Shown: positions 5,462 to 36,558 of the stretch, piece by piece
Layout: each line of letters begins with the position of its first letter
How positions within the stretch are numbered: position 1 is the first letter of the stretch
Assembly: GCF_018977255.1 (NCBI RefSeq)
Contig: NW_024704742.1
Location: 7,008,001 to 7,072,000, forward strand
Length of the DNA stretch: 64,000 bases
Reading direction: 5' to 3'
Origin: Callorhinchus milii
Taxonomy: Eukaryota
Program-made: the position numbers and the translations under genes
The notes under the pieces: model-generated
Database searches by the model: none
What the model was told of the DNA's origin: nothing
Seen by the model: only the letters and a program-made list of their open reading frames with translations

Positions 5462-5627
5462 CAATTCTTAAATTCAGCCTAATTTAGAAGCCGTTTTTCC
5501 CCAATTCTTAAAAGAAACTAGCTTCTGTATTAAGGTGGAATTGAAGAATTGTTCACAATCCTGCATTGGATTGAAAAACTGCAACCCCCAATTTTGGGGG
5601 CACGGAATCATCCCACTCATTTACTGT

Positions 5628-15400: not shown

Positions 15401-15739
15401 GACAGAGAAATACTAACTTACAGGTCGCATTAGTATTCATTCGACTTCGACCCTACCTTGATATAGGAATAAAAAGCTTGGGAAGTTTACTTATAAAAAT
15501 GAATGCTTATTAATTCAACTCTTCTTTAACATCTGTTAAAACACTGACTGCACAATAAGTGATTATAGTTTAGGTTTTCCTCTGAGGAGGCAGTAACTCC
15601 ACCTGCCCAACCCTTGCATATTCCAGTAATGACAGGAACCGGCAGATTAAAATATTCAAATGTCTGGACTCCTATTATGGATCAGTGGGAAAACACACAT
15701 TTTGGTGTGTCAGTCAGACCATATCTGGAAAGAGTTAAC

Positions 15740-15960
15740 TGGAGTAGTCTTAAGGGGGCAAATTATTGGCTTTAGGGTTCCCTTGAGCTAAGGAGATGAA
15801 AAAAAATCACCCAAAAGGTTCTCAATCGCTAGGCAGTGAAACGTGTGTGGAGACATGATTCAGTCTCATGTTGATACTCCATCCATAGTCAAACAGCCTG
15901 GTGCCTCACTGTCGAGGTTAACTCACGACAAACAGCCCATGTAGGACCATGTTTAATACT
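15740..15960 (+). mobile_element. Old Deu-domain-type (SacSINE1-like) SINE relic; similar relics near 14330-14460 (-), 26040-26140 and 46770-46830
   Basis: Shared ATTGGCTT(C/T)AG...CTA(A/G)GGAGA..AAAA motif among copies; family assignment from memory of shark SINE consensus sequences. Confidence 0.4.
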
Positions 15961-16377
15961 AGTAACTGAGGAACATTTACTTAGGGAAAAAATTAGTGGC
16001 GTATCACTCAGGGCTGTTATTGTGGACCTCAAAAAACTGAGCGTGGAAACCTCGTAACTGCTGGGTTGCCCCAGTGACAGCCGTGTGTGAATCTGGACAC
16101 CAGGCCATTTGACCGTGTCTGCATCCTGACATCCATTCGCCGACACTTCACTGAGGGAGGTCACTGATAGAGACCAGGATTAGGAACGCCTTTCGATGAC
16201 TTTTCTCTCTTCTAACTCAAGGGACCCCAAGGCCAATTCTATTCCGTCCTCCCACCCACCCATCCACCAAGTGCTGCTCCCACGAATGCAGCCCAGAGCA
16301 CAGATTCAACGGGGGAGCCTCCTTGGTTTGTGCAATGGTACAGGAGGGTTAAATGAAAGAAACTGGTGTGAAACCCA

Positions 16378-16615
16378 TGATCAGTTGGTAGCACTCCCGC
16401 TCTGAAGCAGAAGGTTGCGGGGTTCAAGCCCCACATTGGGATTCGGAACTCAGTCTTGTCAGATTTTCCAATACAATGCTGGAGGTCCCCTGCGCTGTTC
16501 GATGTGCCATCCTTCAGATGAGATTTTAAACCTGTTCTGTTCCGCCTGTTCAGGTGGACAATCCCGTGCCATTATTCGGAAAAATCAAATGCAAGGATTA
16601 TTATTATTATTATTA
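16378..16615 (+). mobile_element. LF-SINE-like relic
   Basis: CAGTTGGTAGCACTCCCGC..AGAAGGTTGCGGGTTCAAG; CAGATGAGA..CCTGTTCAGGTGGA. Confidence 0.65.
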
Positions 16616-17002
16616 CGAAATAACAATGAATTAAATTAAATAGAAACATTTGCTTAAACCAGCCCACATGTAGAACACTGGATAACCCAAAGGGTTACTA
16701 GGCCATCTGTTATCTGTTCATGGTTACCAGGATTCACCACAGTCAGTACATGTTACAGAGGGAACAGACAACTACACCACATTTGAAGGGTTGGGATAGA
16801 TTAGAAACCACAAGAGTCACAAAAGCAGCTGACGAAGGTCATTCAAAACCCATGATTGAATCCTGCCCTCAGCACAGCTCCCAGACAATTTAAATTGTTT
16901 AGAATGCACACAGCCTTCTGTTCATTTTGGCTTCAGGAAACTTCACTACTTTTGAGGTTTGCCTTTGGAGTTCGTACTTTGGATTGCCATAACTATCTTC
17001 TT

Positions 17003-17135
17003 ACAATTGGCTGCCGCGTTTGCCCACAAATATACAGTCAATTCACTTTACAGTGTGTTCTGTGAAGCGCTTTGGGACGTCCCCCCGACGTGAAAAGCGC
17101 TATATCAAATGCAAGGATTATTATTATTATTACTA
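17003..17135 (+). mobile_element. tRNA-SINE subfamily B 3' fragment
   Basis: Tail GGGACGTCCCCCCGACGTGAAAAGCGC plus (ATT)n. Confidence 0.88.
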
Positions 17136-19148
17136 CTGTCAGCTACTGCTGTTACAGCCACTCAGCATTGCTATACAGCTTTGTATCACACCACAGAATG
17201 TGTGTGTGTGTGTGTGCATTTTACGAGAAAATAAATCACTGTGTGGTTTTCTTACAAGTGTTGCAATTACAAAAAACTTGCACTTTTTTTGCTCGGTGAC
17301 AATACACTCTCTATTTTTCTCGTCACCACTACTTGTAATGCTTTTGACAATGGAATTGTCAAACTATAATTGGAAAATCCCAGTCTAAGCACTCGTCATT
17401 AAAGAAGCTGCACTTAGCGGTCAAAGAAATTTCACTCCCTTTCATATGGTTAAATATATTTCACAAACCCAGAGAGTGTGAATAATGTGACACTTTCATA
17501 GTATTGGCTTTTGATTGCCTGATAATCAATACTCTAAAAGCCTCAGAAGGCAATGAACAGAGCACTGAGGAACGTAAAGAATTCTGGAAAGATAATTTCC
17601 TGGCAAGAAGTAGAAACACTGTGCAGCCCTGCTATAAAATACAATTTTTGTTATAGTGTTGGAATTTTATGGATCCTAACCTCCGTGATATCCTGGGGCT
17701 GCACTGAAATTCAAATATCCCCTGCAACATGTTCCACAAGACCTCAGTTTAATGAATTTTGGATGAGACATTAAACCTGAGTGTTAGCTATCTGCTTCAG
17801 GTGGGTGCTACAGTTCCCATCAGAATAGTCTGCTAGAGAAGGGTGTTTCTTCTGGTGTTCTGGCCATCAAAGCATCCAGATAAATTACTCATTCACTTCA
17901 TAGTTGTTTGTGGGACTTCACTGGTGCAAATAACTGCCACATTGATTTTTTTTTAAAAAAAAGCAGTCATTTCTTGACCGCAATGAATTGCGAAACATCT
18001 TGAGACACTTCAAAAAGATAAAAGATTCTAAATTGTTACCTCGAACTCCTTATTGTGTAGCACTTCCAACACACAACACCGCCTCAATGCCACAAGCTTC
18101 TGAGCTTCCCTCAGTCAGTGCTGAACAGACTTAAAAATAACCTTTGTACAACATGTAAATTTGCGTTGGGAAGTTCTTCCCATCCTTTAAACCGTACTAT
18201 GTGGGAATAAGATTTTCGTTAGTCATGAAAGTGAACGTTGCAGTTCACTTCATTTCCAGAACAACAACAACAACAACAACAACTTGCATTTATTTAGTAG
18301 CGAATCCGAGACCTTAACAGCGGTGTGGCTTCATGACAGGCGGGAAAGGGAGGGGAGGTGACCAAAGGCAACAGCAAAGAAGAAAGTCTTCAGCTGCGAT
18401 TTGAAGACAGGCAATGGGGGGACAAGACGGAGGATTGAGCCTGGGAGTTCGAGAGATTCAGTACCACATCGCAGGTTGTGCGTTCATTCACTATTGTGTT
18501 GTCATTTACACATTACAGATCCAAGATGTTTACATACTGAAATACGTCAATATTCTTGCAGTGTACTTAAATTTTACGAAGGCTACTTGAAAGGAACTGT
18601 TGACCCGATATACTCAGTGGGTTTCTCGTGAACAAAAACCTCTGGACTGCACATTAGTGAATTAACCAAACTACAAAGCTCAGATGTAAAATACTGGAGT
18701 AAGGTTTTTGGTGTTTCATAGTGCTTTTTTCCTCTTGTTAATTAACATAAGAAATGCATTATAAAATGCCACAAGCTCTATCTCACTCTCATAAAATTTG
18801 TAACAGGAAACCCAGTGCAGAATATTGCTTCATTAATGGTGAGAAACTGGAATTCTGTTAGCCAATTTTGCAGAAATAAATGAGGATCATGGAAATAATC
18901 ATACAACAGACTCACTCACAGCCACATTAGAATTCCCCTTAACTTCAAACTACAGCGGTTTTTATGAATGTGCTCTTGAAATCTCTAAAAGGAAAGTCGT
19001 AACGATGTGGAAAGTTATATGTTTAATAAAAAACCCATCTCCTCAAGGCTGACAAAGTACTAAATGTATTTTTTTTCCCCCCAAGCCTTATAATCTGCAC
19101 TCAGCCAATTCAAAAAATAACATCAGAATTGTATTCATATTCACCTAC

Positions 19149-22037
19149 CTCTGCTTTTTGTGTTCTGGGCAAACTGGCGGATTTCTCAATTGCATAAACA
19201 TCCACAAGGTACAGGTTTGGACCTCGTTCTCGATCCAGCACAGCCGCTGTTTGGATGATACCACTCTGACGTCCTATGGTGAAGAGGCGTTCAGCAGATT
19301 TTCCGCTGCAACGAACTGAAACTATGTAATACTCCACGACTGCCGAAGACCCTCTTGGACTCGCTGCATCTAAGGAGATCACACTGGTACCCACAGGCTC
19401 CCCTTCGCGTACAATGGTGATATATTTTGCCTTGGAAAAGACTGGACCATCTGTACCCTGTAGGATGACAGTCAGCTCAGTGCTGGTTGTCTTTCTCTCT
19501 GGTCCAAGGTCCACGGCCGACACGACTAGGTGGTATGTGAGCTTGGAAGGAACCAAAGGTGCAATCACTCTAATATCACCGTTATAGCGATCGATCATAA
19601 AGGTCTCACTGTCTCCGCTGACCAATTCGTACTCGACTTCTCCGTTAGCTCCTTCATCTGGGTCTACAGTCACGATGGTCGTAAGAATGGAGCCCATTGC
19701 AACGGAGCTGTCTGTAACCAAAGCATTCTGCGATACAAAAATCGGAGCATTGTCGTTTTCGTCAGTGACTAAGATGGTGACGTTCTTCAAGGCAAAGCGT
19801 CTGAAATCTGCCGGAACTGCTTGATCGATAGCCTTTATAGTGAGCTCAAACAGATTGGAAAATTCACGATCAATCTCCGCGTTGGTGCGCAGGGTCCCAT
19901 CCAGGGGATTGATCTGAAAATGGTTTCCTCTTGGCACCTGTTGAGCTATGCAATATTGCAACTTTCCATTGATGTCAGCGTCAGGATCCCGAGCGGTGAT
20001 TGTCAACACAGAGGTGCCGATGGGGACATTTTCCACAATGGGCTTAAAAATATCTTCGGGGGGAAAACTTGGTGGATTATCATTAAAGTCTCTAACGTGA
20101 ATCACCATCGACATGGTGGAGGATCTGGGTGGCCTTCCGTTATCTTTTGCTGTTACATTCAAGTAGTAGACGGACTGAGTTTCAAAGTCCAGCTTTTTAA
20201 CAAGGAAGATGCTACCTGTATTGTGGCTAATGCTGAAGGTGCCATGATTCTTACTCCCTGTGATACCGTAATGGATCTCAGCATTGTCCCCTGAGTCGGA
20301 ATCGGTGGCAGTCACAGACACGACCAGCTCTCCAATTCTCATGTTTTCTAATGCGTCAACGTGCAGCACGGACTTAGGGAATGAAGGAGTGTTGTCATTT
20401 TCGTCCAGGACACTGATGATTAAACTACACGTGGAGCTCAGTGGTGCGCTCCCCAAGTCTTTCGCTAAGAGCTTCAGAGAATAAGAAGCCGTCGCTTCAT
20501 GGTCCAGCTTTCCTACCAATGTCACGTGTCCACTGGTCCTCTGAATGTTAAACTGATCTTCTTCGTTGCCTTCAATGATATAATAATGGACCAAGCCATT
20601 GTTTCCCTCGTCGACATCTGAAGCGCTGACACGCAACACTTGTGTCATGTTTACAGCTGATTCGGAGATAGTGGCCTGGTAAAGATCTTTAGTAAATCTG
20701 GGTGGGTTGTCATTCTTATCCTGGATATAGATTTGGACAGTGGCATGGTCCTGGAGAGATTTTGGCAATCCTTGGTCTGATGCGATTGCTGTGAAGCTGA
20801 AAACTGCAGCCCCTTTCTGCCTCATTAGAGCCTCTCTGTCGAACGGAAGTACACTGGTGATTTCCCCAGTGACAGTGTTCAACTCGAAGTCAGGCTGAGG
20901 CGTCTCAAGCGCATACTTCACGTCACCGTTCGGTCCGAAATCTTTGTCCACCGCGACGACGTGACCCACTGATGAACCGGCTTCCTTTCCCTCTTCAAAA
21001 TAAAATACATAATTAGTGCTGTTGAACAGGGGCCTGTTGTCGTTTACATCTTCCAATATTATTGTAACATTCACAGTGGCGTTCAGAGCCTCCACGGCTC
21101 TGTCTGCAGCAACAACCAACAGGACGTAGCAATCTTGGGTCTCTCGGTCTAATTCCATCTTTATGTACAGCTGTCCGTCTGGGAAGATACCAAACTTGTT
21201 GTCCCCGTTTCCTTTTGCGATATCGTAGGTCACCTCTCCGTTCACTCCCGAGTCTTTGTCGGAGGCCTTGACTTTGAAGAACCTGGAGTTCACAGGTTCG
21301 GCCTCTGAAAGTGTGATTTCATATGAAAGTTGGTCAAATACGGGTGGATTATCATTCACATCGTGCACGTACACAGTCAGGATTAAGCTCGATGTCCGCC
21401 TGGGTACACCCATGTCAGATGCGAGTACCTCGACCTGGTACGAACCTGTATTTACATCGAGAGGTCCGGTTAACGTTACCTTTCCAGTGTTCTCATTGAT
21501 GTGGAAAAGACCTTTGGGATTCTGTCGTAAGGAGAATGAAACTATGCCATTGACGCCTTCATCAGGATCCTCGACCCCAGCCTGGAAAATCGTGTGCCCC
21601 GCTCTCCAGTTTTCGACAGCATTAATATTTTCCACTGCGTGGGAGAAACGTGGGGAATTGTCATTCAGGTCTTTGACAGTGATGTTGACCAAAGTCTCCC
21701 CGGTCACAGCACCACCACTTGCTACGACTTTTAACTGATAAAATGCTAGCTCTTCTCTGTCTATGGTGCTGGCAGTATTAATTTGACCCGTTGTTCCATC
21801 AATTGTAAACATGCCTTTTTGATCACCTGAAGTGATAAGGTAAGTGATGTTGGTGTTAAGATCGAGTGTGGACGCAGACACTGTGCCAACAAGGGAACCA
21901 ATGCCAATGTTTTCAAAGATAACAAAACTGTAGCTGCTTTGACTGAATGAAGGAGGACTATCCTGGGTGTCAATGACAGTGATGGTAACAATCGCCGGTC
22001 TCTGGGAGCGAAGATTCCCTCCGTCCGTCGCCACGAC
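19149..22037 (-). CDS. FAT4: FAT4 second coding exon: end of cadherin repeat 7 to most of repeat 16 (2889 nt, 963 codons)
   Basis: Acceptor ttttggttgcag|GTC (AG at 22039-22038). Translation VVATDGGNL... continues ...KTAYQLQ in frame, matching mammalian FAT4 KTAYQLQIVATDGGNL as I recall it. Repeated DxNDN motifs. Ends ...PRTQKAE at donor GAG|GTAGGT (GT at 19148-19147), the position where I recall the mammalian giant exon ending. Confidence 0.96.
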
Positions 22038-22688
22038 CTGCAACCAAAAGACAACCAGAAACATTGGGGAGATGGGGAAAAAAGCACAACCACTCGACAA
22101 GCGAAAGCATTTAGCAGAACTGACTGAAAGAGATATTCAGTAACAAGAAAATGCTATAATTGGTATGAGTAGAACAATTAATTCATCTGTGATAATGTTC
22201 GAGTGATTAGATTTCATTAGAAGGAGCAATCAATGTGTGCAAACGGGGCTGACTATTTCGCTTGAAGCGTCTGTTTTGTAAATTATTGTGTAAGGTCTCT
22301 ACTTTGGCATAATTGTGTTTGTACTCTTAATTGTACTGAGGAACATTTTCTTTGCTGCACTGAATAACCAGAATGTTAATGAGTGTCTAATGAGATGGAC
22401 AGCACTCTATGTGAACGTGCTAATGTGATAGCTCATCATGTTTTCACTCTGTATTTCAAGTGGTATGTCATGACTGCTGGAAATGAAATAAAGGGTATTC
22501 AAATGCAAATTGCACTTTTTTTGTTGAGGACGAGATTGTTGTATTTTAATGATCTTTTCTCCACATTGCTCTGCTTGAGTTGCTTTACGCCAGGTATCAT
22601 CACAGGCAAAAGAGAAAGCTGTCAGCTTCAAAATGCCACTTTGAAACCAGACACAATAATAACCAGGCTGACTTCTTTCTGGGGTAAG

Positions 22689-22880
22689 TGATAATAATAA
22701 TAATCCTTGCATTTGATATAGCGCCAGATTACGTCTTTGAGACGTCTCAAAGCACTTCACATAATATAATGTAAAGTGAATTGACTGTATATTTTCTGGG
22801 CGAAACGTGCCAGCCAACTGCACACACCAGTGTCTCACAGACAGTTATGGAATGAAGTGACCAATTTATTATTATTATTA
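22689..22880 (-). mobile_element. tRNA-SINE subfamily A 3' fragment
   Basis: Family tail on the minus strand. Confidence 0.85.
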
Positions 22881-24351
22881 TTTGAAAAGCACCAGGCCTT
22901 TACTCAGTACATCCTCACAACAGCAACGTAGAGAGATCGGAAGATAGGAGGGGAGGGGGACAATTTCACTTGGGTCTCGATTCACTCAATTTCAGACTTT
23001 TCTAATTTCGGCAAATTATTCAATTCAGCCTTAATTTTGAACTTGGCTGTCTGCAAGTTCTTTTAAGAAATTGCAGACAAAACTGGCTTCAAAACTAAGC
23101 CTGGATTCAATGATTTACAAAATTCTGCATATTCTAAAAATGATACATAACTAGAGTACGTCTAGGTATTCCTTTACCAAGGTATTTGAGTGGGAATATC
23201 TTGCAGGAAGGGAAATTCTATTACTCACATCAACCGTACCCACAAGAACTCCACTCCAGTACTAGACTGCAATTGAAAGTGATTTGGTATGAGGAGCTTT
23301 GTTTCCCTATTATGTAAGCTCCTTAGAAATCACCACATATTGAACCACACTGTGGTGAGGAGTAGCAGTATTACAACAGAGACTGCAAAATACTGTCCAA
23401 TTTTTAATTGTTGTACTATTCCAAAATTAGTTCCAACAGTAATCTGCAAGGCCATTCAACTTGTACCCAGACGCCCTCAAAGTGCAAGGATTACTACTAG
23501 CTATTTTCACAAAATAATGTTGTACTTTGTGACTTTGACACCACCTTGAAGTTAAATTAAGAAGCCAAATTAAAAAGCAAAAAAAAAGCACCATATTGTC
23601 ACCCTCCGTGACAATGCTAACAAAATAATCAAATAGAGAGATTCGAATGAAACAACGTCTCCATTAAAAATGTTGCGAGACGTAACCCCATTTGAAGGGA
23701 ACTAGATAAATGCAAGTTGTTGTTGTTATTCCCCGTCTTGTGTTGCATTTATTAATTACTCAGCAAAACCTGCTGAGCCCCTAGTTTGACATCATCTGCA
23801 AATGCACCTAATCCAGATTGTACACGTGTACCAGGAAGAGGAATATCTCCTCTGATTGCAACTAATCCCAAATAAGACCTGGGATTGTGGGCATTGTAGG
23901 CATTTTATCTTCAAAATAACATTGGAGACTTCAGAAAAGGGAGGGAGGGTTGTGTAGACTATGGAAGGAGTGTGTTTGATGCCCAATAAGTTTTTTTTTT
24001 AAATGTCATGTTGTTTTATAGTCTTATGATCCAAGTGGTAATAATTTCCAGACCCACCTGCTGAAACGTGAATGACTGCATCAATTTTAAACAAAATCAT
24101 TAATCTGCTTGAATATTACAAAAAAGATTGAAAAGGACAAACTTGGAAACTGAAATGCCGTAATCAATTAATCTTTACTTACCCCAATATTTAAAACACA
24201 AAAATCAAATCTGTGATTTACACATTGGGTTTTACAAGATTTGAAATTATTTCCGTTTGAAATGAATGTTTATGTGGATTATAAACACATCATCGTAGTG
24301 CTGTGACAGGTCTATATATCTTTTTTTTCTTTTAAGTCTCTTTAAAGTTTA

Positions 24352-24770
24352 ATAATAACCCTTGCATTTGATATAGCGCCTTATCAAGTCTTCGAGACGT
24401 CTCAAAGCGCTTCACAGAATATACTGTAAAGTGAATTTACTGTTTATTTTGTGGGTGAAACACAGCATCCAATTGCGCGCAGACAGCAGTGTCCCACAAA
24501 CATCCACCTGGCTGCCTCCTCCTCCAACCCATGTCGCCTACCACCCCTACCCCATGCTTCCTTCCTCAACCTCTCCCCCTTACGACTCCTACCACACCCC
24601 CCACCCTCCCCACCTTCAAACACGCCTAAAGACCTTCCATTTTGATCGTGCTTACGGACACCTCACCCCTCCCTGTCCCCTTGGCTCGGGGTCAGACTTC
24701 GCCACTGTCAAGCGCTCCAAGACACCACTCCGCGTGAAGGGCGCTATATAAATGCGAGTTGTTGTTGCTG
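24352..24770. mobile_element. SINE 3' fragment (minus, 24352-24503) abutting an L2 3' fragment (plus, ~24504-24770)
   Basis: SINE tail, then C-rich L2 3' region ending GGGCGCTATATAAATGCGAGTTGTTGTT. Confidence 0.8.
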
Positions 24771-24959
24771 TTCACGTCAGAAGGGCATCGCAAAGCATTT
24801 AACACCCCGCTGGGGTTGGAAAGCAATTGAAGTGGGGAGGAGAAAGATGAACGAAAGCATGTTCGAACGAGGTGAGGCAGGGAGCAAATCAGAGGGACGC
24901 CAGTATGGAGCTCTCTCTCTCTCTCTCTGGTCTCGCTACCACCAGACCCCACGCATCGT

Positions 24960-25288
24960 GGAGTCCTGTAGCTCAGTGGTTAGAGCACTCGCTTTGCAAA
25001 AGAGAGACCTGAGCTCAATTCCAGGCACAGGGCGAAACCTTGGGCAAGTTTCCTTACTCCACACAGAGCCTAATAATAATCCCTCCAAAACCCCAAACAA
25101 TAATAAATTGGTCATTTTCAATCTACGACTGTTTGTGGGGCATTGCTGTGCGCAATTGGCTGCCGCGTTCGCCCACAAATATACAGTCAATTCACTTTAC
25201 AGTGTGTTCTGTGAAGCGCTTTGGGACGTCCTCCCGACGTGAAAAGCTCTATATCAAATGCAAGGATTATTATTATTATTATTATTAT
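24960..25288 (+). mobile_element. tRNA-SINE subfamily B, full length
   Basis: Head, short body and B-type tail with long (ATT)n. Confidence 0.92.
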
Positions 25289-26834
25289 ATTGCTCGCTAG
25301 CTGAATTCTGAGAGGTTCAGCAGATGCCACACGAGCCAGCAGGTGATCACTCTCACTCCCCCTTGTGGGGAAGCATCTGATTTCGAGTCCACACCCCCTT
25401 GAAAACAACGCGGCCGAAATCAGAAACGCGGCTGAAATCAGAGACTCGGCTGAAAGTGGACGAATAATAATATGGGTAACCCTTGCATTTGATGGAGCGC
25501 CTTATCGCGTCTTCGAGGCGTCTCAAAGCACTTCACAGGATGTGCTACACAGTGAATTGACTGTATATTTCATGGGTAAGATTCACACCGATGTCCTTCC
25601 ATTCAGCAGGGCGGTGCATTGATACTCCATTCACCCAGCCACTGCTTTGGATATATATTATGTATATATATATAATATATATAGTGTAGCAAGACTGGAT
25701 GAAAATCTAACCTTTACACTTACGAAAATGAAGGGACTGATTTATTTCAGGGAGGTGCGATTCCACACCACAAAATCTGCTCGTCATTGCTACCGATATT
25801 CAGCAACGTGCAGAAGGATTTTTGATCAGAAATTTTTTTTTTTTTTTAAACTTAGGCTCCTACAAGACAAATCACAAAGTGCAGAATTATTTTACAATGA
25901 ATAATAATCCGTGCATTTGCAAAACCTTGCGTTTTCCATCAGACTCGCAGTGGGTTGAGTGCAGTACAGTGAAGAAAACCAACCTTCCTAGTAGCTCGTT
26001 GAGTAAGTGCATCAAATAGAATAACAGAGTCATGCGGACCAGGTAGCTATCAGAGCTCTGTGCTGAGTTTACCAAACTCAACGAGGGTAACAGCTGAGGT
26101 GCTAAAATTGGCTTCAGCATCCCTGAACTAAGCAGGTGTAAAACTCGGAAAACAAGCAGCTGTGATAGCGTGTTTGAGCACGATCACTATTTTCAGTAAA
26201 AGAGGGGTACGAAGGGAAATGTAGAGAGGCAAATAATTCAAGGCCACTGGCCAACATGAGTGGTGCCAGTAACGTACCAGTTTTCTGAGTTCAAATGGAG
26301 CTTTAATATAAAAACATCATTGGAGATTTGCCAGATGAACACTTAAGGTGAAGACCTGTGCTCTAACGCTATGATTATGATAATAATTATCCTTGCATTT
26401 GATATAGCGTCTTCGAGACGTCTCAAAGCGCTTCACAGAATGTCCTGCAAAGTGAATAGACTCTAAGGTAAGAGTGGGGTTACATTCCCTGGAGCTGAGA
26501 AGGTTGAGGAGTGATGTGATTGGTATTTAAGGCAATGAGAAGAATCGACAAGGGAGAAGAGGATGATGTTTCATTCTTTTAGAGGCAACCAAAAAAAGGA
26601 GACCCATCGAGAAATTCCACCAGGGTTTGGATTTTCAATGCTATCCTATATGATGTATTTTGCCAGTTAGCTACTTAGAGGTTTGATTTTCTTCACCTGG
26701 ATTAAAGCAAAATGCAAGGGTATACGAATGCAAAGATTATTGCTGTCTATTATTGTAAAACACGACTGCACTTCATGATTTTGTCAACCATCCTGAAGTT
26801 AAATTAAGAACCAAATTGAGACATAATCCATCTA

Positions 26835-27045
26835 TTTCCTTAGCATTTCAGAGCAAGCAGAATTTAAGAAATTGTTGAATGCAGGCCCAACTTTAAAGCC
26901 CATTTTCTGTACAACAGTTCAATTTATATAGCACAGCTGGTTTGGGTTTTTTTATAGCATCTTAAATTTACAAAAAAAAGACTAGCTTCAGATTAACACT
27001 GTTTAAAAATCTGCCAAATTCTGGATCCATTGAAATGCTAGGAAA
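26835..27045. mobile_element. Palindromic MITE-like element with ~15 bp terminal inverted repeats
   Basis: TTTCCTTAGCATTTCA (26835-26850) and TGAAATGCTAGGAAA (27031-27045); related copies at ~5462-5551, ~23004-23127 and ~44331-44520. Confidence 0.65.
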
Positions 27046-27084
27046 GTAAAGTAAATCTAGACTCAAACGGAAGATTATTACCTA

Positions 27085-27560
27085 ACCTCACACCTCAACT
27101 ATTCCAATGCCCTCCCCACCGGACTCTCCACCTCCACTACCCACGAAATCCAGTTAATCCAGAACTCTAGTGTCCTCATACTCACCTGGAATAAACTCTG
27201 TATCCCTCATCACACCAGTTCTTGACAGGCTCCACTGGATCCCCTATCACTGAATGGATCGACTTCATACTCGTCTTCAAATCCCTACATTCCCTGGCAC
27301 CCCTCAACCTCTCCGACCTACTTACACCCAATCCACTACCCGTCACCTCTGCTCGACCGGCTGCAGCCTCCTGCTTGTCCCTCCTGCCCTCAATTCCACC
27401 ATTGGCTGCCGCGTTTTAAGTCACGACGCCACAAAAACTCTGCAAAGCTCTCCCTCAATCCCTTCACCTTGCCCCCTCCTTCCCCATCTGCAGGTCGTGC
27501 CAGAAGATCTTCCTCTTCGATTGTGCCTGTGGTGCCCTCCCCCCACTCCCTGGCTCGATT
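27085..27560 (+). mobile_element. Degenerate L2 LINE 3' fragment
   Basis: Similar to 29640-30120 (RLHW..I..ILVFKSLH-like remnant). Confidence 0.7.
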
Positions 27561-28680
27561 GGGATCAGGAGGGGTGGAGGGCGGGGGTAGGAGGGTGACC
27601 GAAGGCACAGTCGAAGAGTAGGGTCTTGAGATGCGGTGCTTCGAATTAAAGAGACTTTCTTCAAATCCCCCCCTCCCCTCCCCTCCCCACACACTCACAC
27701 TGATTTCCAATCCCTGCCACTTGGTGGGAAATGCTGCGTAGTGCAGACCAAGCATTTTTTTGCTCAGCGGGAAGGAAGGGGCAGGGGAAACTAACTGGAA
27801 AGACTCTGCTAGGTCACCTTTGCAGGCCTCCTGGCAGCTGGCCAGCTGCTGTAGTGGTGGCCTGAAGTACAATGCCTAGATACCTTATCAGATGCAGGAG
27901 ATTTACTACACAGGGTGGTCCATCAAGGCGAGGGAATCAGTTTGTCCTGAAAACGAGAGCTCTGTGACTTTTTGGATGAACCTGTTTTTTTTTCAGTGGT
28001 GTAGTGTATGGCATTGCCTTGAGATGGAGTGCATCCCGCTATGGAGAACAAGGTCCACCCCCCCCCCACCCCCCAACCACCCCACCCCATCGCCCCATGG
28101 TCGGGTCAGAGTGCCAGGACATACGTTGTATGAATGATGCTCTTTGTAAGAAAAGATATTCGCATCCGAATGAAGAACAAATTGTTTGTTTCGGGTGTCT
28201 GATCGGTTTGAAACATCTCAAAGTGGCTTTGGGGTCGGTTTGGTCAAGTGCAGTGACTTTTTTTTAAAAACAACAAAAGGGAGAGAGTTAACCAAGTTCA
28301 TTGTTAAGCACTTTCAAGAACCCAAGCCAGAAATTGTGGAGGAATCGTAATTGTTCTTCATCTTTTTATGCCATAAAAAGAAAATAACAAAAGAGCATCG
28401 CTGATTTTTTTAAACACACACACACACACAGACATTTCTTTTCCCTGGTCAATCCAAACCAACTCTCTCTTATCTGACTGAAGCTAACCAGGGCATTAAC
28501 ACCTGTGCGACAGGAGCAAAGCAGTTTAATTTCTGACTCGGGCCAGCTTCTACAGAAACCTATTGGGAGGAATGGAAGAGGAGAGGAACAGTGTCAGTGT
28601 CAGGTCTGGGAGGCAGAGTTTTGACAGAACAGCTCCGCAAGTGGAATTTTGTTGAAAGTTTTGTAGGGTTGTGCAGTAAT

Positions 28681-28715
<35 letters not shown>

Positions 28716-29112
28716 GCACGACACAGCTGTGTGCAATTGGGTGCCAATTCGCCCAGAAAACACACAGTCAATACACTTCACAGTTACATATCCTGTGAAG
28801 CGCTTGGAGACGTCTTGAAGATGGGATAAGGCACTATATCAAAGGCAAGGATTATTATCATTATTATTATTATTAATATTATTATCCTCAGTAAGTCTCA
28901 GCTGCAAGTTCGAACTCCCTCCTCACGGAAAACCCCAGGAACATTTTGACTCTCACTCTCACACCGGCAGCCAGGAACAACCTGATGGATGGGTGGAACC
29001 ATAATAACCAGGGAATTTGTTTGTTTGCTGCCATGAACAGCAGTAGTTGTAACCTGAACACCAGGTACTTACTGAGCAAGTGACAGTGTGTGTGCGCGTG
29101 TGTGTTAATCTC

Positions 29113-30222
29113 AGCAAAAGGCTTCTCCTCGAGCCCCCGCACCGTCTCGTGCGGTGTCCCTCAGGGCTCTGTCCTCGGTCCCCTCCTCTTCACCCTCTAC
29201 GTGCTCCCCCTGTGGTGACATCATCCGCAGACATGGGGTAAATTTCCACATGGGATAAATTTCCACATGTTCGTGGATGACATCCAACTCTATCTCTCGC
29301 CCTCCACCCTCAACTCCTGGCGTCCTGACCGATATCAAGTCCTGGATGAGGGACAACTTTCTCCAGCTGAACGTCAGCAAGACCGAAGCCCTCCTGAATG
29401 GCTCGCGCCAGCGCCTCCGCACCTCGGGCGCTGGCAGCATCAGCCTCCACGGCTGCACGCTCAACCTCACTAAGCCAGTCAGGAACCTGGGGGTCTTGTT
29501 TGACCCTGAACTGTCTTTTCTCCCCCACATCCGCGCCATGACCGGCACTGCCTACCACCACCTCCGCAACGTTGTCAGACTCTGCCACTGCCTCACCCCT
29601 CAGGCTGCCCAAACCCTCACCCACGCATTCGTCACCTCAAGGCTCGATTACGGGAACTCCCTCCTCATCGACCTTCCCAACTCCTCCCTTCACAAGCTGC
29701 AGATCATCCAAAACTCTGCAGCTCATGTACTCTCACCACCAGGCTCCGTGACCCCATCACTCCCACCCTCGCCCGACCCCACTGGCTCCCCATCCCCCAG
29801 AGGATCGAGTTCAAGATCCTCGTCCTCACCTTTAAGACCATCCATGGCCTTGTCCCCTCCTACCTCTCTGACCTGCTGACTCCCTACCAACCTGCCCGCT
29901 CCCTCCATTCAGTGGGCTCCGGTCTGCTCCATGTCTCCCGCCCGACCCGCCCTACCATCGGTGGCCGGGCTTTCAGCCTCTCTGCCCCCACACTCTGGAA
30001 CTCCATCCCACGGTCCCCTCACCTCGCTTCCTCCCTCGCCTCCCTCAAGGTTGGTCTCAAGACCCTTCTCTTCAACTGTGCCTTTGGTCTCCCTCCCACC
30101 TCTCTGCCTTCCCTCACCCCTACCCCACCCCTCCCCTATGCTCGGGCCCCGACACCTGACTGTTCAGCGCTTTGGGATGTCCTCCCGACGTGAAAGGCGC
30201 TCTATAAATGTAATGTTGTTGC
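29113..30222 (+). mobile_element. L2 LINE, 5'-truncated (RT C-terminal half plus 3' UTR)
   Basis: Remnant reading [60 protein letters not shown] with frameshifts; 3' tail ending ATAAATGTAATGTTGTTG. Confidence 0.92.
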
Positions 30223-30245
30223 TGTACACCATGTACTGTAAAAGT

Positions 30246-31397
30246 GGCAGTGTGTGTAGTGTTAGTGTCTGTGAGTGTTGGTGTGTGTGCAGTTAGTGTA
30301 GTGTTAGTGTGCGGTGTTAGTGTGTGTGGTGTCAGTGTGTGTGTAGCTAGTGTAGTGGAGGCTTGTGTTTAGTGTGTGTGTAGCTGGTGTCTTGTAGGCT
30401 TGTGTGTAATGTGTGTGTAGCTAGTGTAATGTAGGCGGGTGTGTAGTGTGTGTAGCTAGTATAGTGGAGGCTTGTGTGTAGTGTTAGTCTGTGTGTAGCC
30501 AGTGCAGTGTTAGTGTGTAGTGTCAGTGCGTGTGTAGTGTAGGCTTGTGTGTAGTGTAGAATGTGTGTAGTGTCAGTGTGTGTATGTTTAGTGCAATGTG
30601 TGTAGGGTCAGCGTGTGTGTGTGTAGTGGAGGCTTGTGTAGTGTGTATGTATGTAGTGTGTGCAGTGGAGGTGTGTGTAGTGTGTGTGTGTGTGTGCAGT
30701 GGAGGCGTGTGTAGTGTGTATGTATGTAGTGTGTGCAGTGGAGGTGTGTGTAGTGTGTGTGTGTGTGTGCAGTGGAGGCGTGTGTAGTGTGTATGGTGTG
30801 TGTAGTGTGTGCAGTGGAGGTGTGTGTGTAGTGTGTGTGTACAGTGTCAGTGTGTGTGCAGTGTGTGTATTGTCAGTGTGTGTGCAGTGGAGGTGTGTGT
30901 GTAGTGTGTGTGTACAGTGTCAGTGTGTGTGTAGTGTGTATAGTTTCAGTGTGTGTAGTATCAGTGTGTGTGCAGTGTGTGTAGTGTCAGTGTGTGTGCA
31001 GTGGAGGTGTGTGTGTAGTGTCAGTGTGTGTGTAGTGTGTACAGTTTCAGTGTGTGTAGTATCAGTGTGTGTGCAGTGCGTGTAGTATCAGTGTGTGTGC
31101 AGTGGAGGTGTGTGTAGTGTGTGTGTCCACCGTCAGTGTGTGTAGTGGAGGTGTGTGTGTGTGCAGTGTCAGTGTGTGCAGTGGAGGTGTGTGTGTGGGC
31201 AGTGTCAGTAGTGGAGGTGTGTGTGTAGTGGAGGTGTGTGTGTGTGTGCAGTGTCAGTGTGTGCAGTGGAGGTGTGTGTACAGCGTCAGTGTGTGTGCGC
31301 AGTGTACAGTGTGTGCGCAGTGTCAGTAGTGTCAGTGTGTGTGTGTGTGCAGTGTCAGTGTGTGTGTGTGTGTGCGCGCAGTGTACAGTGTGCGTGT
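30246..31397. repeat. ~1.15 kb degenerate (GT)n/(CA)n-based satellite with GTAGTGT, CAGTGTCAGT and GCAGTGGAGG variant units
   Basis: Directly visible; begins at the first bases of the intron (GTACACGCACAC... on the minus strand). Confidence 0.95.
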
Positions 31398-31399
31398 AC

Positions 31400-33808
31400 C
31401 TGGAGCTGATACGCCGTCTTCTCCTCGCGGTCCAGCGACACTCTGGTGGTGACGGCCCCGGTGCTCGGGTCCACGCGGAAGGCGTGGCCGTCGCCGGCGG
31501 TGATGGAGTAGCTGACGGTGCCGTTCGGGCCCAGGTCCGGGTCGGCGGCCGACACGCGGGTGAGGTGAGCTCCCGGGGGCTCGTTCTCCTTCACGTGGGC
31601 GAAGTACTGCACCGGGTAGAAGACGGGGCTGTTGTCGTTGACGTCGAGCAGAGTGACGGTGACCGGGGCGCTGGCGGAGAGCGGCGGCCGACCCTGGTCG
31701 ACGGCCTGGACCAGCAGCCGGTACGCCGCCTGCGCCTCCCGGTCCAGCCCGGCCGCCAGGCTCAGGCGACCGGTGTCCGGGTCCAGGCGGAAGAGCTGCC
31801 GGTGCCGGTCCGGCGTGTCCGGGTGCAGCCGGTAGCGGACGGTGCCGTTCGGGCCCAGGTCCGGGTCCCGGGCCGTGAGCAGCGCCAGCTCGGTGCCGGC
31901 CGGGCAGCTCTCCGGCACCGACAGCCGGTAGGCCGGGCGGCCGAAGGCGGGGCGCCGGTCGTTCACGTCGGCCAGGCTGACCCGCAGGGCGGCGTGGGCG
32001 GTGCGGGGGCGCGGGCCCCGGTCGGAGGCGCTGATGTTGAGGGTGACGGTGGCCGCCGTCTCCCGGTCCAGCCGGGCCCGGCTGGTCAGCAGGCCGCTGG
32101 CCGGGCTGAGCGAGAACCAGCCGAGCTCGTTACCGGACACGATGGTGTAGGTCAGCTCGGCGTTCAGGCCGGAGTCGCCGTCCGTGGCTCTCACGCCGCC
32201 CACGTAGCTGCCGGACGGTAAGTCCTCGGGGACCCGGACCCGGTACATGGCGTCGGTGGCGTCGGTGTCGCCGGTGTCGTCGGGCCGCCGCTGGAAGACC
32301 GGCGGGTGGTCGTTCACGTCGTTCAGCACGATCAGCAGCGAGGCCAGCGACGACCGGGCCCGGGGCGAGCCGTGGTCGCGCACCGACACGGTCAGGTTGT
32401 AGGCCGGGATGCGCTCCCGGTCCAGCGGCGCCGCCACCTTGACCAGCGACAGGCCCGGCACGGCCGAGGCCTGGACCTGGAAGTGGCGCTGCTCGTTGCC
32501 GGCCAACAGCGACACCGACACGTTGCCGCCGTTGGCCTCGGCCGAGTCGGCGTCGCTGACCGTCAGCAGCGCCACCACCGTCCCGGCCGCCGCGCTCTCG
32601 TCCACGGCGGCGAAGCGGGAGGCCGCCGGGAAGTAGCGGAAGCGCACCACCGGGTCGTTGTCGTTCACGTCGGTCAGGCGGACGGTGGCCTCGGCCCGGC
32701 CGGCCAGCGCCGGGCTGCCCCGGTCGGTGGCGCGGATGACCAGCGAGTACTGCCGCCGGCTCTCGTAGTCCAGCTTGTCCCGGACGGTCAGCAGCCCGGT
32801 GCGGGGCTCGATGGCGAACGGGAGCGGGAGCGGGTGGCCGCCCGCTCCGACTCGCCCGGTCCCCCCGGTCCCCCCGGTCCCGGTCCCGCCGGTCGCCTCC
32901 TCCAGCGAGTACACCACTTCCCCGTTGGCGCCCAGGTCCGGGTCGGCGGCGGCCGCCCGCAGCACCGACGTCCCGGGCGCCGAGTCCTCGGCCACGGTGG
33001 CCCGGTACCGGGGGCTCAGGAAGCGCGGCGCGTTGTCGTTCACGTCCTGCACCGTCACGTTGACCCGCAGCCGCCCGGACCGGGCCACCGGCCGCCCCCG
33101 GTCGCGGACCTCCAGCAGCAGCCGGTAGGCGGCCGCCGACTCGCGGTCCAGGCCGCCCACCGACACCAGGTGCAGGAAGGCGCCCTCGCCGCTCGGGTTG
33201 ACCGTCACGTCCAGGCGGAACCGGCCCTCCTCGTTGCCGCCCACGATCCGGTACGAGCCGTGGTCCACGCCGTTGGCCGGCGTGTCGGCGTCGGTGGCCG
33301 TGTCCAGCAGCACCCGCCGGCCGCCCCCGGCGTCCTCCTTGAAGGCCACGGCGAGCCCGGGCTCCGGGAAGACCGGCGCGTTGTCGTTCAGGTCCAGCAC
33401 CAGGACCCTGACCTCGGTGGGGTAGGTGGGTTGGCTGGACAGCACCACCAGGTCGATGGCGTCGCCGCTCAGCGCCTCCCGGTCGATGGCGGCCGCCGTG
33501 CGCAGGGCGCCCGTCTCGGCGTCCAGGGCGAACAGGGCGTGCGCCTCGCTCAGCCGGTAGGTGAAGCCGGGCTTGGCCGGGACGGCCCCCACCCAGGTAC
33601 CCGGCGGCTGCTCCTCCTGGACCCGGAACACTTGGCGGAGATGGCCGGTGGTGGTGGTGGTGGAGGAGGAGGACGAGGAGGTGGAGGAGGAGGAAGAAGG
33701 AGAAGAAGAAGAGATGGCGGAGGAGGAGACACCGACGCAGACGCTCAGGAGCAACCGCAACCCCGAGAGGCTGAGCCGGACCCGGACCGACCCTGACCGG
33801 CGGCCCAT
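31400..33808 (-). CDS. FAT4: FAT4 first coding exon: signal peptide, cadherin repeats 1-6 and N-terminal part of repeat 7 (803 codons)
   Basis: ATG at 33808 in strong Kozak context (ACCATGG) followed by a hydrophobic signal peptide. The protein has DRE and DxNDN cadherin motifs and FAT4-typical segments (QVFRVQEEQPPGT, SSQPTYPTEVRVLVLDLNDNAPVF, NPSGEGAFLHLVS, FYPVQYFAH, LDREEKTAYQLQ). Ends at donor CAG|GTACAC (GT at 31399-31398), phase 0. Confidence 0.96.
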
Positions 33809-33824
33809 GGTCACACCGGGAGAG

Positions 33825-34011
33825 GGTCTCTCTCTCTCTCTCTCTCACGCCGACTCGCCGCCGACCCCTTCGTCGCTTCCCAAAGGCATCCAAAAAAATA
33901 CCATCCGGAGTGTCTCTCTCCCCCACACACACACACACACACAAAAATCAAATCCGTCCCCGAAAGGAAAGGAAATACATATATATATATATATATGTTA
34001 TATATATATTC

Positions 34012-34045
<34 letters not shown>

Positions 34046-34637
34046 GTATTCCCGACACCGCCGACCACTTACTTTAGCCCTTTCTGTCTCTTTCTTCCAT
34101 CCATCGTTCCCCCCCGAAGAACGAACCAAACGGTGTGTATATATATATATTATGTTAATATATATTATATATGTGTATGTGTGTGTGTGTGTTTGCTTTT
34201 GGGTACCGTCGGCGGTTGACGTGCGACCGATCGGTTACCACCGACTGCGCCGAGACCTCGAAACGGGAATCCAATCTCCTCCTCTGGCGATGGGTTCGTC
34301 TGTTGCACCGTTGTTCTTCATCGGCGGTTACAAACGTGTGTGTGTGTGTGTTATGTATTATATATATATTATGTTATATATATATATATGTGTATAAGGA
34401 TCACACGCACTGCACTGTGTGGTTGAGAGGCTCCTCGTTGTTGTCGCTGTTGTTGTCGGTGGCGGCGGTTCTCTCTCAGGAGGAAAGAAAAGGCAATGCT
34501 GTTCCCCTCTGAAACTTTTCTGTCAACTTGTCTGAGAGGCGAACTGTTCGAGCGTTGTCTCTCTCTCTCTCTCTCTCACTCACTCGCTGTGTCTTTCTCT
34601 CTCTTTCTCTCTCTCTCTCACTCACTCGCTGTGTCTT

Positions 34638-34669
<32 letters not shown>

Positions 34670-34850
34670 TCTTTCTCTCTGGTTTCGGCGGAGAGGAGGA
34701 GGAGGAGGATAGGAGGAGAGGAGGACTTGGCTCCCGGTCTCAGTTCTCTGCCGTTGCCGACACCGGGAAAGACATGACTGCGCCTTCGAGGGTCATTCCC
34801 TGGGATTTCTCTCTCTCTCTCTCTCTCACTCACTCTCTCTCTCTCTCTCG
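33825..34850. repeat. Cluster of (CT)n, (CA)n, (AT)n and (GT)n microsatellites upstream of the FAT4 ATG
   Basis: Multiple dinucleotide runs, plus a tandemly duplicated CTCACTCACTCGCTGTGTCTTTCTCTCT block at ~34570-34660. Confidence 0.9.
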
Positions 34851-35019
34851 TCCCAAAACGCAACCAAACTCCCCCCCAAAGCACAGCCCACAGTCTCTCG
34901 CACTTGCACCACAGCATCGCCCCCCCCTCACCCCCCACCCCCTCCTCACACAGCTCAGCCCTTGTGGCTGAGACTCCCGTCCATCACACGGAGTGACGGC
35001 TTCCCTCCACCATCCTTTC

Positions 35020-35250
35020 TACCACCCCCCCCCCCTACATCATCAACCCCCCCCCACACACACATCACCCCCCCCACATCATCAACCCCCCCCCCCCACA
35101 CACACCCACACATCATCACCCCCCCCCCCACACACACACACACATCACCCCCCCCCCACACACACATCACCCCCCCCCACACACACAACCCCCACACACA
35201 CATCACCCCCCCTCCTCCTCTCCCCCCCCCCCAACCCCCTCTCTCTCTCT
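35020..35250. repeat. C-rich minisatellite (CACACACATCAC(C)n), G-rich on the FAT4 sense strand
   Basis: Roughly ten units of cacacatcac-cccccc visible. Confidence 0.9.
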
Positions 35251-35540: not shown

Positions 35541-36558
35541 CTGTGTGTGTGTGTCTGTGTGGGGGGGGGGGTGTCTGTGTGTGTGTGGGGGGGGGGGTGT
35601 GTGTGGGGGGGGGTGAGTGTCTGTGTGTGGGGGGGGGGGGGGTGTCTGTGTGGGGGGGGGTGAGTGTCTGTGTGGGGGTGAGTGTGGGTGAGTGTCTGTG
35701 TGTGTGTGGGGGGGTGAGTGTCTGTGTGGGGGGGGTGAGTGTCTGTGTGGGGGGGGTGAGTGTCTGTGTGGGGGTGAGTGTCTGTGGGGGGGTGAGTGTC
35801 TGTGTGGGGGGGGTGACTGTCTGTGCGGGGGGGTGAGTGTCTGTGTGTGGGGGGGGTGAGTGTCTGTGTGTGTGTGGGGGGGGGTGAGTGTCTGTGTGGG
35901 GGTGAGTGTCTGTGTGGGGGGGAGTGTCTGTGTGTCTGTGTGGGGGGGAGTGTCTGTGTGTGTGGGGGGGGGGGTGAGTGTCTGTGTGTGTGTGTGGGGG
36001 GAGGGTGAGTGTCTGTGTGTGTGTGTGGGGGGGGTGAGTGTCTGTGTGTGGTGGGGGGGGGGGGTGAGTGTCTGTGTGTGTGGGGGGGGGGTGTCTGTGT
36101 GGGGGGGGGTGAGTGTCTGTGGGGGGGGGGGGGGTTGGGGGGGGGGTGAGTGTCTGTGTGGGGGGTGAGTGTCTGTGTGTGTGTGGGGGGGGTGGGGGGG
36201 GGGTGAGTGTCTGTGTGGGTGGGGGGGTGAGTGTCTGTGTGGTGTGGGGGGGGTGAGTGTCTGTGTTGGGGGGGGGGGTGAGTGTCTGTGTGGGTGTGGT
36301 GTGGTGAGTGTCTGTGTGTGTGGGGGGGGGGGGTGAGTGTCTGTGTGTGTGTGGGGGTGAGTGTCTGTGTGTGTGTGGGGGGGTGAGTGTCTGTGTGTGT
36401 GGGGGTGAGTGTCTGTGTGTGTGGGGGTGAGTGTCTGTGTGTGTGTGTGGGGGGGTGAGTGTCTGTGTGTGTGTGGGGGTGAGTGTCTGTGTGTGTGTGG
36501 GGGTGAGTGTCTGTGTGGGTGAGTGTCTGTGTGGGTGTGTGTGTGTGGGTGTGTGTGT
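35541..36558. repeat. G-rich minisatellite, unit G(n)TGAGTGTCTGT(GT)n, G-quadruplex-prone
   Basis: About 40 tandem units of variable G-run length; ~34 contain GGTGAGT (hand count). Confidence 0.95.

What the first reader, a model, noticed from the sequence alone, without database searches (positions are those of the whole stretch)
19149..33808. The giant first coding exon of FAT4 is split by a 9.36 kb intron at a duplicated CAGGT proto-splice site (candidate lineage-specific intron gain)
Seen: two ORFs join in frame at YQLQ|VVATDGG inside cadherin repeat 7. The donor reads CTCCAG|GTACAC and the acceptor TTGCAG|GTCGTG, so CAGGT occurs at both junctions. Established (from memory): human FAT4 encodes this whole stretch, up to ...RAE, in one ~5.2 kb exon, and the downstream donor here is at that conserved position. 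Inference: an intron arose by duplication of an AGGT-containing site (insertion TSD or tandem duplication) and later filled with repeats. Alternatively it is ancestral and was lost in bony vertebrates. Intron gain is considered rare in vertebrates. Caveat: CAG|GT at both ends partly just reflects splice consensus.
Basis: partly seen in the sequence, partly recalled or inferred. Interest (0 to 1): 0.75.

Follow-up and report, generated by a model that had tools for sequence, protein, structure and literature searches.

The report
Cartilaginous-fish intron inside FAT4's giant exon
The elephant-shark FAT4 gene carries a 9.4 kb intron inside a coding exon that is unbroken from insects to mammals, but it looks like an old gain shared with a distant cartilaginous-fish relative, not a recent chimaera novelty.

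Summary
Two minus-strand cadherin reading frames (33808-31400 and 22037-19149) join in phase 0 at YQLQ|VVATDGG across a 9,362-base GT..AG gap. The join matches FAT4 orthologues residue for residue.

The gene is the only FAT4 locus in a 991 Mb genome. An old Callorhinchus milii RefSeq protein matches the second part at 100%.

In public contig reading frames, 25 of 28 vertebrate FAT4-like frames run straight across this codon and stop just after the conserved downstream donor. They sit nearest teleost, frog, gecko, bird and mammal proteins. So do 33 invertebrate frames, mostly arthropod-like. The unbroken exon is therefore the older state and the intron is a gain.

The other 3 of 28 frames form one cluster. 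They begin exactly at the VVATDGG codon, are 81% identical to the window, and form a clade with it. Their branch lengths fit an elasmobranch-holocephalan split. The gain is probably chondrichthyan-wide and ancient.

The CAGGT "duplication" is only 3+2 bases, with no terminal repeats. The intron is now filled with satellite, LINE and SINE-like copies, so how it arose cannot be recovered.

Also seen: GC3 falls from 0.97 to 0.51 exactly at the intron.

The parts
31400..33808 (-). FAT4 first coding exon, part 1a: ATG to ...TAYQLQ (803 codons). Signal region, FAT4_N domain, six cadherin stretches. GC 74%, GC3 0.969.
   Evidence: It is 57-61% identical to FAT4 orthologues.
31394..31402 (-). 5' splice site CAG|GTACAC. 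The exon side is strong; the intron side is weak and looks like the satellite.
   Evidence: The homology boundary falls at residue 803.
22038..31399 (-). Phase-0 intron of 9362 nt, absent from bony-vertebrate and arthropod-like orthologues.
   Evidence: GC 46%, CpG o/e 0.47.
30249..31384 (.). TG/CA-rich satellite that fills the first 1.1 kb of the intron up to 15 nt from the donor.
   Evidence: Tandem Repeats Finder arrays; 162 matches to window 30900-31420 across many contigs of the genome.
29109..30200 (+). 3' piece of a LINE-like repeat (reverse-transcriptase-like open frames, no Pfam hit), antisense to the gene.
   Evidence: 39 other copies listed at 85-94% identity, with 51,290 first-look candidates..
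25018..25286 (.). SINE-like repeat. Further copies lie inside the intron near 22691-22876, 24350-24502 and 28720-28864.
   Evidence: 98% identity to C4:64865467-64865735, and 80-82% identity among the copies inside the intron.
28489..28559 (-). Predicted small exon inside the intron, used by the old RefSeq model XP_007897232.1 (ag|GTTTCT...CCCTG|gttagc).
   Evidence: No RNA evidence was seen here.
27699..27861 (-). Second predicted small exon inside the intron (cag|GCCACC...ATCAGT|gtgagt). The old model joins it to 22037.
22038..22085 (-). 3' splice site: pyrimidine-rich tract then ttgcag. A ctaaat branch-point candidate lies about 70 nt upstream.
19149..22037 (-). FAT4 first coding exon, part 1b: VVATDGG... 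to ...PRTQKAE (963 codons, nine cadherin stretches). GC 48%, GC3 0.507.
   Evidence: It is 63-76% identical to bony-vertebrate orthologues (63-75%; Latimeria 76%) and 81% to P0264.
19143..19151 (-). Conserved downstream donor GAG|GTAGGT, shared with vertebrate and arthropod-like orthologues.
   Evidence: Contig frames elsewhere end 1-68 aa after this point, and their tails begin V[S/R/K].

Best explanation
This is a genuine U2-type, phase-0 spliceosomal intron inside the giant first coding exon of the single FAT4 gene of Callorhinchus milii (or a 100%-identical relative). The exon is unbroken in bony vertebrates and in arthropod-like outgroups. The intron was therefore inserted into a Gln-Val (CAG|GT) proto-splice site in the cartilaginous-fish lineage. 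It arose no later than the common ancestor of this fish and a second, deeply diverged chondrichthyan, most likely an elasmobranch, which would make it several hundred million years old.

The spliceosome removes it and restores cadherin repeat 7. Its present 9.4 kb are later filling (satellite, LINE, SINE-like copies) and keep no trace of how it arose.

What is shown:
- the sequence anatomy;
- exact collinearity with orthologues;
- absence of the intron in outgroup contig frames;
- a frame starting at the same codon in a second organism.

What is inferred:
- removal of the intron in RNA;
- that the second organism is an elasmobranch;
- that there was a single gain.
For: Anatomy: GT..AG, pyrimidine tract, phase 0, both frames intact.

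Identity: Cadherin_FAT4_N hit at E 1e-46. Best named hits are FAT4. There is one locus in the 991 Mb genome. XP_007897232.1 [Callorhinchus milii] is 100% identical over all 963 residues of part 1b.

Absence elsewhere: I hand-listed 96 Logan contig frames. Of these, 28 are vertebrate FAT4-like (at least 60% identity to 1b). Of those 28, 25 pass from 1a residue 803 to 1b residue 1 without a gap and stop within 70 aa of the conserved donor. Their tails begin V[S/R/K], which is read-through of a GT donor, so they are genomic. Their nearest named proteins are teleost, frog, gecko, bird and mammal. A further 33 frames below 60% identity (24 Logan, 6 ENA, 3 JGI) do the same. Of these, 31 are nearest arthropod or priapulid proteins. 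Nine more are collinear but have trimmed alignments.

Presence in a second organism: P0264, P0325 and P0326 are each 981 aa, on contigs of 3281, 4239 and 4219 nt. They begin MVATDGG exactly at 1b residue 1 and end RTQRAE plus 18 aa.

Placement of that organism: the cluster forms a clade with the window sequence (NJ bootstrap 100 of 100; SH-aLRT 98 in a quick IQ-TREE tree). Terminal branches are 0.12 and 0.15, against 0.11 for Latimeria. C. milii is reported as the slowest-evolving vertebrate genome (PMC3964593, passages), so the split is deep.
Against: The donor GTACAC is weak on its intron side.

For the second organism only proteins were seen, not DNA, and only the acceptor side. No frame ending at YQLQ was found in any other organism. 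The window's own frames are not in that collection either.

Calling it an elasmobranch rests on branch lengths and on recalled divergence dates.

The outgroups sampled as contig frames are bony vertebrates and ecdysozoans only. Lamprey, hagfish, amphioxus, echinoderms and molluscs appear only as spliced gene models, which say nothing about introns.

The careful tree search did not finish.
Confidence: 0.68

Rival explanations
1. Holocephalan-only gain. The intron arose within chimaeras, perhaps by duplication of an AGGT site at a transposon insertion or a repaired break. On this view the P0264 organism is simply another chimaera.
For: CAG|GT stands at both junctions. The read-through tail after the downstream donor is faintly similar between the two (VGEYEYN against VSRYDHN), which would be easier to explain between closer relatives.
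Against: The amino-acid distance is 0.19. That equals bird-mammal (0.189) and is more than double turtle-bird (0.081). The window's terminal branch (0.12) is as long as that of Latimeria (0.11), although C. milii evolves more slowly. DNA runs of organisms B-D share 7-13% of 31-mers with part 1b. That fits roughly 93% nucleotide identity, which is closer than 81% amino-acid identity would allow, so closer relatives than P0264 seem to exist. The shared junction sequence is only 3+2 nt and there are no terminal repeats.
Confidence: 0.15
2. Ancestral intron. It was present in early vertebrates, or earlier, and was lost precisely in the bony-vertebrate stem and independently in arthropods.
For: Arthropods have lost many old introns (general knowledge). 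No jawless-vertebrate or invertebrate-deuterostome gene structure could be examined here.
Against: It needs at least two exact losses against one gain. The arthropod-like frames keep the neighbouring old intron at the conserved donor and still lack this one. All 25 bony-vertebrate contig frames that carry both parts lack it.
Confidence: 0.1
3. Not an intron. The gap is an assembly error, or repeats have landed in a dying gene.
For: The gap is full of satellite and interspersed repeats. The old RefSeq model lacks part 1a.
Against: Both frames are intact over 803 and 963 codons. Canonical splice signals sit exactly at the homology boundary. The gene is single-copy. A second organism has the same break. 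Sharply different GC3 on the two sides argues for long physical separation.
Confidence: 0.03

Closest known systems
First coding exon of bony-vertebrate FAT4 (human and mouse FAT4; teleost, bird and coelacanth orthologues)
   Same: It has the same coding content from the ATG to ...PRTQ[R/K]AE. It has the same downstream donor. Residues are collinear throughout.
   Different: There it is one open frame of about 1680-1890 aa (for example P0071 at 1752 aa in the mammal clade, and Latimeria H3AIL3 at 1683 aa). Here it is cut after codon 803 by 9362 nt.
Clade-shared intron gains in vertebrate coding exons: slc26a1 in Eurypterygii (PMC12357937, passages read), melanocortin receptors in ray-finned fishes (PMC3151243, abstract only)
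   Same: A new spliceosomal intron appears inside a formerly unbroken, conserved coding exon and is inherited by a clade.
   Different: Those gains are in teleosts, which have high intron turnover. [quoted passage not shown] This gain also seems much older.
Transposon-borne introns (introners) and duplication models of intron gain with AGGT target duplication (recalled, no paper read)
   Same: MAG|GT stands at both borders, as those models predict.
   Different: Nothing beyond the 5-nt consensus is shared. There are no terminal inverted repeats, and no single element spans the intron. The same pattern arises from any insertion into a CAG|GT proto-splice site.

Membership tests
FAT4 / Drosophila fat (ft) orthologue | FAT4-type N-terminal cadherin domain followed by tandem cadherin repeats | tested here: met
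   PF25374 at E 1.1e-46 on residues 58-139. PF00028 has 6 stretches in part 1a and 9 in part 1b.
FAT4 / Drosophila fat (ft) orthologue | Best named relatives are FAT4 and are collinear over the whole 1766 residues | tested here: met
   FAT4 of birds, teleosts, Latimeria and others at 57-61% (1a) and 63-76% (1b). DCHS and CDH23 reach only about 28-36%.
FAT4 / Drosophila fat (ft) orthologue | Single orthologous locus in the genome | tested here: met
   the Latimeria protein matches only C1:7027149-7041646 at 61-76% identity. All other matches are 40% or below.
FAT4 / Drosophila fat (ft) orthologue | C-terminal EGF, laminin-G, transmembrane and cytoplasmic parts | not tested
   The later exons were not found between window positions 1 and 19149 and were not looked for elsewhere.
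U2-type GT-AG spliceosomal intron | GT and AG borders, pyrimidine tract, branch-point candidate | tested here: met
U2-type GT-AG spliceosomal intron | Removal restores the frame and residue-for-residue homology | tested here: met
   1a residue 803 aligns to N and 1b residue 1 to N+1 in the orthologues that span both parts.
U2-type GT-AG spliceosomal intron | The spliced junction is seen in RNA | not testable with these tools
Derived (gained) intron of one clade | Absent at the homologous codon in outgroups | tested here: met
   absent in 25 of 25 bony-vertebrate contig frames that carry both parts, and in 33 invertebrate-like frames (plus 9). Jawless vertebrates and invertebrate deuterostomes were not testable.
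Derived (gained) intron of one clade | Same position in a second member of the clade | tested here: met
   three 981-aa frames start at 1b residue 1 and form a clade with the window sequence. Only the acceptor side was seen, and only as protein, not DNA.
Duplication- or transposon-made intron (AGGT target duplication, introner) | Direct repeat at the borders longer than the splice consensus | tested here: not met
   3 identical bases upstream and 2 downstream. The longest direct match between the two 330-nt ends is 8 nt, against a shuffle mean of 7.9.
Duplication- or transposon-made intron (AGGT target duplication, introner) | Terminal inverted repeats, or one element spanning the intron | tested here: not met
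   the longest inverted match is 6 nt; the intron is a mosaic of unrelated repeats.

The most novel reading that the evidence does not exclude
A single intron was gained in the stem of cartilaginous fishes, some 400 million years ago, inside a 5.3 kb exon that has otherwise stayed unbroken since before arthropods and vertebrates split. Since then it has acted as a physical boundary. It lets the promoter-side 2.4 kb drift to 97% GC at third codon positions, most likely through GC-biased gene conversion. That drift reshapes cadherin repeats 1-7 (37% Gly/Ala/Arg/Pro against 21-28% in orthologues), while the rest of the exon stays at 51% GC3.
Probability: 0.3. Interest if true: 0.55.

Novelty: new member of a known kind. 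Interest (0 to 1): 0.35.

Why it matters
Intron gains are rare in vertebrates, and rarest in this lineage (PMC3964593). A clean, datable gain inside a deeply conserved giant exon is therefore a useful marker for chondrichthyan phylogeny and a clear case for studies of intron turnover.

Its likely age has a cost. The sequence no longer records how the intron arose, so it will not settle the mechanism of intron gain.

The very sharp GC3 step at the intron offers a natural test of how far promoter-linked GC-biased evolution spreads along a gene.

None of my three searches of the held library (FAT4 with 'intron gain', 'Callorhinchus' or 'intron positions') found a paper.

Tried and rejected

The look-up of sequencing runs: no RNA holder listed. 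Runs X1, X3, X4 and X7 are only guessed to be RNA. This is not used as evidence on expression.

Exact look-up of the window's own two frames: not in the collection.

Search with part 1a at near lengths: no frame from any organism ends at YQLQ. P0131 (826 aa) crosses the junction. So there is no donor-side evidence outside the window.

The search of protein representatives with the first 200 residues of 1b: the best 150 were giant multi-cadherin proteins ranked by summed score. It gave nothing on short frames. Its only use was to show that the lamprey model P0101 continues from residue 627 to 628 across the site, and as a spliced model that says nothing about introns.

Old RefSeq model XP_007897232.1: it uses the acceptor at 22037 but starts from small exons inside the intron and lacks part 1a. 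It may be ab initio filling of a partial gene, so I do not count it as RNA support.

Literature on the extent of human FAT4 exon 1: I found only '17 exons' (PMC12540217, passage). The 5.2 kb figure remains recalled.

The search of earlier findings: nothing relevant.

Named gene models (NCBI, UniProt) that cross the junction were not counted as evidence of intron absence, because they are spliced predictions.

treekit failed to load twice. Its careful search did not finish, so the quick tree is cited.
Full report
**1. The observation**

On the minus strand, a stop-to-stop frame at 31355-33844 contains an ATG at 33808 and reads a cadherin protein up to ...LDREEKTAYQLQ. It then runs into gtacacgcacac.

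A second frame at 19110-22136 passes from a pyrimidine-rich tract ...ttttggttgcag into GTCGTGGCGACGGAC, which encodes VVATDGG. It ends its homology at ...PRTQKAE|gtaggtgaat.

Part 1a (33808-31400) is 2409 nt and part 1b (22037-19149) is 2889 nt. The gap at 22038-31399 (9362 nt) is therefore a phase-0 GT..AG interval.

Pfam finds the FAT4-type N-terminal domain (E 1e-46) plus six cadherin stretches in 1a, and nine cadherin stretches in 1b.

**2. Which gene and which genome**

The window lies at C1:7008001-7072000 of a 991.5 Mb assembly.

The best named relatives of both parts are FAT4 proteins of birds, reptiles, frogs, teleosts, sturgeon and coelacanth.

A Latimeria FAT4 fragment finds only this locus at 61-76% identity. 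Everything else in the genome is at 40% or below.

An old RefSeq protein, XP_007897232.1 'protocadherin Fat 4-like [Callorhinchus milii]', is 100% identical to all 963 residues of part 1b.

**3. Is the exon unbroken elsewhere?**

Spliced gene models cannot answer this, so I used reading frames called directly on contigs (Logan, ENA and JGI sources). Such frames are uninterrupted by construction.

I hand-listed 96 Logan, 29 ENA and 8 JGI frames.
- 28 Logan frames are vertebrate FAT4-like, meaning at least 60% identity to part 1b.
- 25 of those 28 align 1a residue 803 to residue N and 1b residue 1 to N+1, and stop within 70 residues of the end of 1b.
- After ...PRTQ[R/K/H]AE their tails begin V followed by S, R or K. 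That is the translation of a GT donor. They are therefore genomic first exons that end at the same donor as here.
- In the trees and by nearest named protein they sit with teleosts, frogs, a gecko, birds and mammals.

A further 33 frames below 60% identity (24 Logan, 6 ENA, 3 JGI) behave the same way.
- 31 of the 33 are nearest to arthropod or priapulid proteins.
- Nine more are collinear but have trimmed local alignments.

The unbroken exon and its downstream donor are thus shared by bony vertebrates and ecdysozoans. On present sampling, the break seen here is the derived state.

**4. A second organism with the same break**

The remaining 3 of the 28 vertebrate-like frames are P0264, P0325 and P0326.
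- They are at least 99.6% identical to each other.
- Each is 981 aa, on contigs of 3281, 4239 and 4219 nt.
- Each starts MVATDGGNLRSQ, exactly at residue 1 of part 1b.
- Each ends RTQRAE plus an 18-residue read-through tail.

The M in place of V marks a called start codon rather than a contig edge. Contigs more than 1.2 kb longer than the frame still give the same start. An open frame does not continue upstream, as it does in all 25 bony-vertebrate frames.

These proteins are 81% identical to the window's 1b, against at most 76% for any bony vertebrate. They form a clade with it (NJ bootstrap 100 of 100; SH-aLRT 98 in a quick IQ-TREE LG+C20 tree), and that clade is sister to the bony vertebrates.

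**5. How deep is that relationship?**

- The p-distance is 0.19. That is like bird-mammal (0.189) or coelacanth-bird (0.201), and far above turtle-bird (0.081).
- In the ML tree the window's terminal branch is 0.12 and that of Latimeria is 0.11. C. milii is reported as the slowest-evolving vertebrate genome (PMC3964593, passages read).
- DNA runs of three other organisms share 7-13% of 31-mers with part 1b. This implies relatives much closer than 81% amino-acid identity would allow.

Together with recalled divergence dates (about 420 My for holocephalans against elasmobranchs, under 200 My within living chimaeras), this makes an elasmobranch the likely source. I put that at about 0.8.

The intron is then at least as old as crown cartilaginous fishes.

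**6. The proposed mechanism**

- When the two junctions are aligned at the splice point, identity extends 3 bases upstream and 2 downstream (CAG|GT) and no further.
- The longest exact direct match between the two 330-nt ends is 8 nt (shuffle mean 7.9, maximum 13).
- The longest inverted match is 6 nt.
- Orthologues read Gln-Val here, so the ancestral exon already offered a CAG|GT proto-splice site.
- The pattern fits a duplication model, but it fits any insertion at such a site equally well.

The intron's present content is secondary.
- A TG/CA-rich satellite fills 30249-31384 up to 15 nt from the donor. Part of it (30900-31420) gave 162 matches elsewhere in the genome.
- A LINE-like 3' piece at 29109-30200 has 39 other copies listed at 85-94% identity.
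- There are several SINE-like copies.

**7. What is not shown**

Splicing in RNA was not tested.

The donor GTACAC is weak on its intron side, though CAG|GTA gives six consecutive matches to the consensus.

The old RefSeq model joins two small exons inside the intron (28559-28489 and 27861-27699, both with canonical signals) to the same acceptor. It lacks part 1a and may be ab initio filling.

No donor-side frame from another chondrichthyan was found. No jawless-vertebrate or invertebrate-deuterostome gene structure could be examined.

**8. Seen on the way**

GC3 is 0.969 in part 1a, and 0.94-1.00 in the last bins before the junction. It is 0.507 in part 1b, and 0.44 in the first bin after the junction.

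Part 1a is 37% Gly/Ala/Arg/Pro, against 21-28% in the same part of orthologues. Part 1b is ordinary at 22%.

Part 1a is also more diverged from orthologues than 1b (57-61% against 63-76% identity). The step sits exactly at the intron.

**9. Verdict**

This is a real intron and most likely a gain, but an old one shared within cartilaginous fishes rather than a chimaera novelty. Its origin is unrecoverable. It is a new example of a known, rare kind of event.

None of my three searches of the held library (FAT4 with 'intron gain', 'Callorhinchus' or 'intron positions') found a paper.

Noticed in passing
window 31400-33808 versus 19149-22037: There is an extreme composition step exactly at the intron. 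GC3 is 0.969 in part 1a (CpG o/e 1.04) and 0.507 in part 1b. Part 1a is 37% Gly/Ala/Arg/Pro, against 21-28% in orthologues, and is more diverged (57-61% against 63-76% identity). It looks like promoter-side GC-biased evolution that stops at the intron.
   Followed up: partly
window 28489-28559 and 27699-27861 (minus strand): Two small open exons with canonical ag/gt signals lie inside the intron. The old RefSeq model XP_007897232.1 joins them to the acceptor at 22037. Their phases would also allow an in-frame 78-residue insert between 1a and 1b. They could be an alternative 5' end, a cassette, or an annotation artefact.
   Followed up: partly
window 30249-31399: The satellite reaches to within 15 nt of the donor. 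The donor hexamer GTACAC itself recurs inside the satellite (TGTACACTG at two further places in the first 100 nt). The present 5' splice site may therefore have been rebuilt from satellite sequence.
   Followed up: no
window 19143-19151 and orthologues: The donor after ...PRTQ[R/K]AE is at the same aligned position in arthropod-like contig frames of about 1700-1764 aa as in vertebrates. The giant first exon and its 3' boundary therefore seem to predate the protostome-deuterostome split.
   Followed up: partly
window 35542-36558 and 34558-35212: There are long TG-rich (24-nt unit, about 1 kb), TC and C-rich/CA tandem arrays just upstream of the FAT4 start. They give long spurious Thr/His/Pro-rich open frames.
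   Followed up: no
window about 1852-2112 and 3265-3546: Translations show X, so the window holds at least two ambiguous bases. Many copies of the same SINE-like unit (motif ...[15 protein letters not shown] in translation) are scattered through 1-19000 and through the intron.
   Followed up: no
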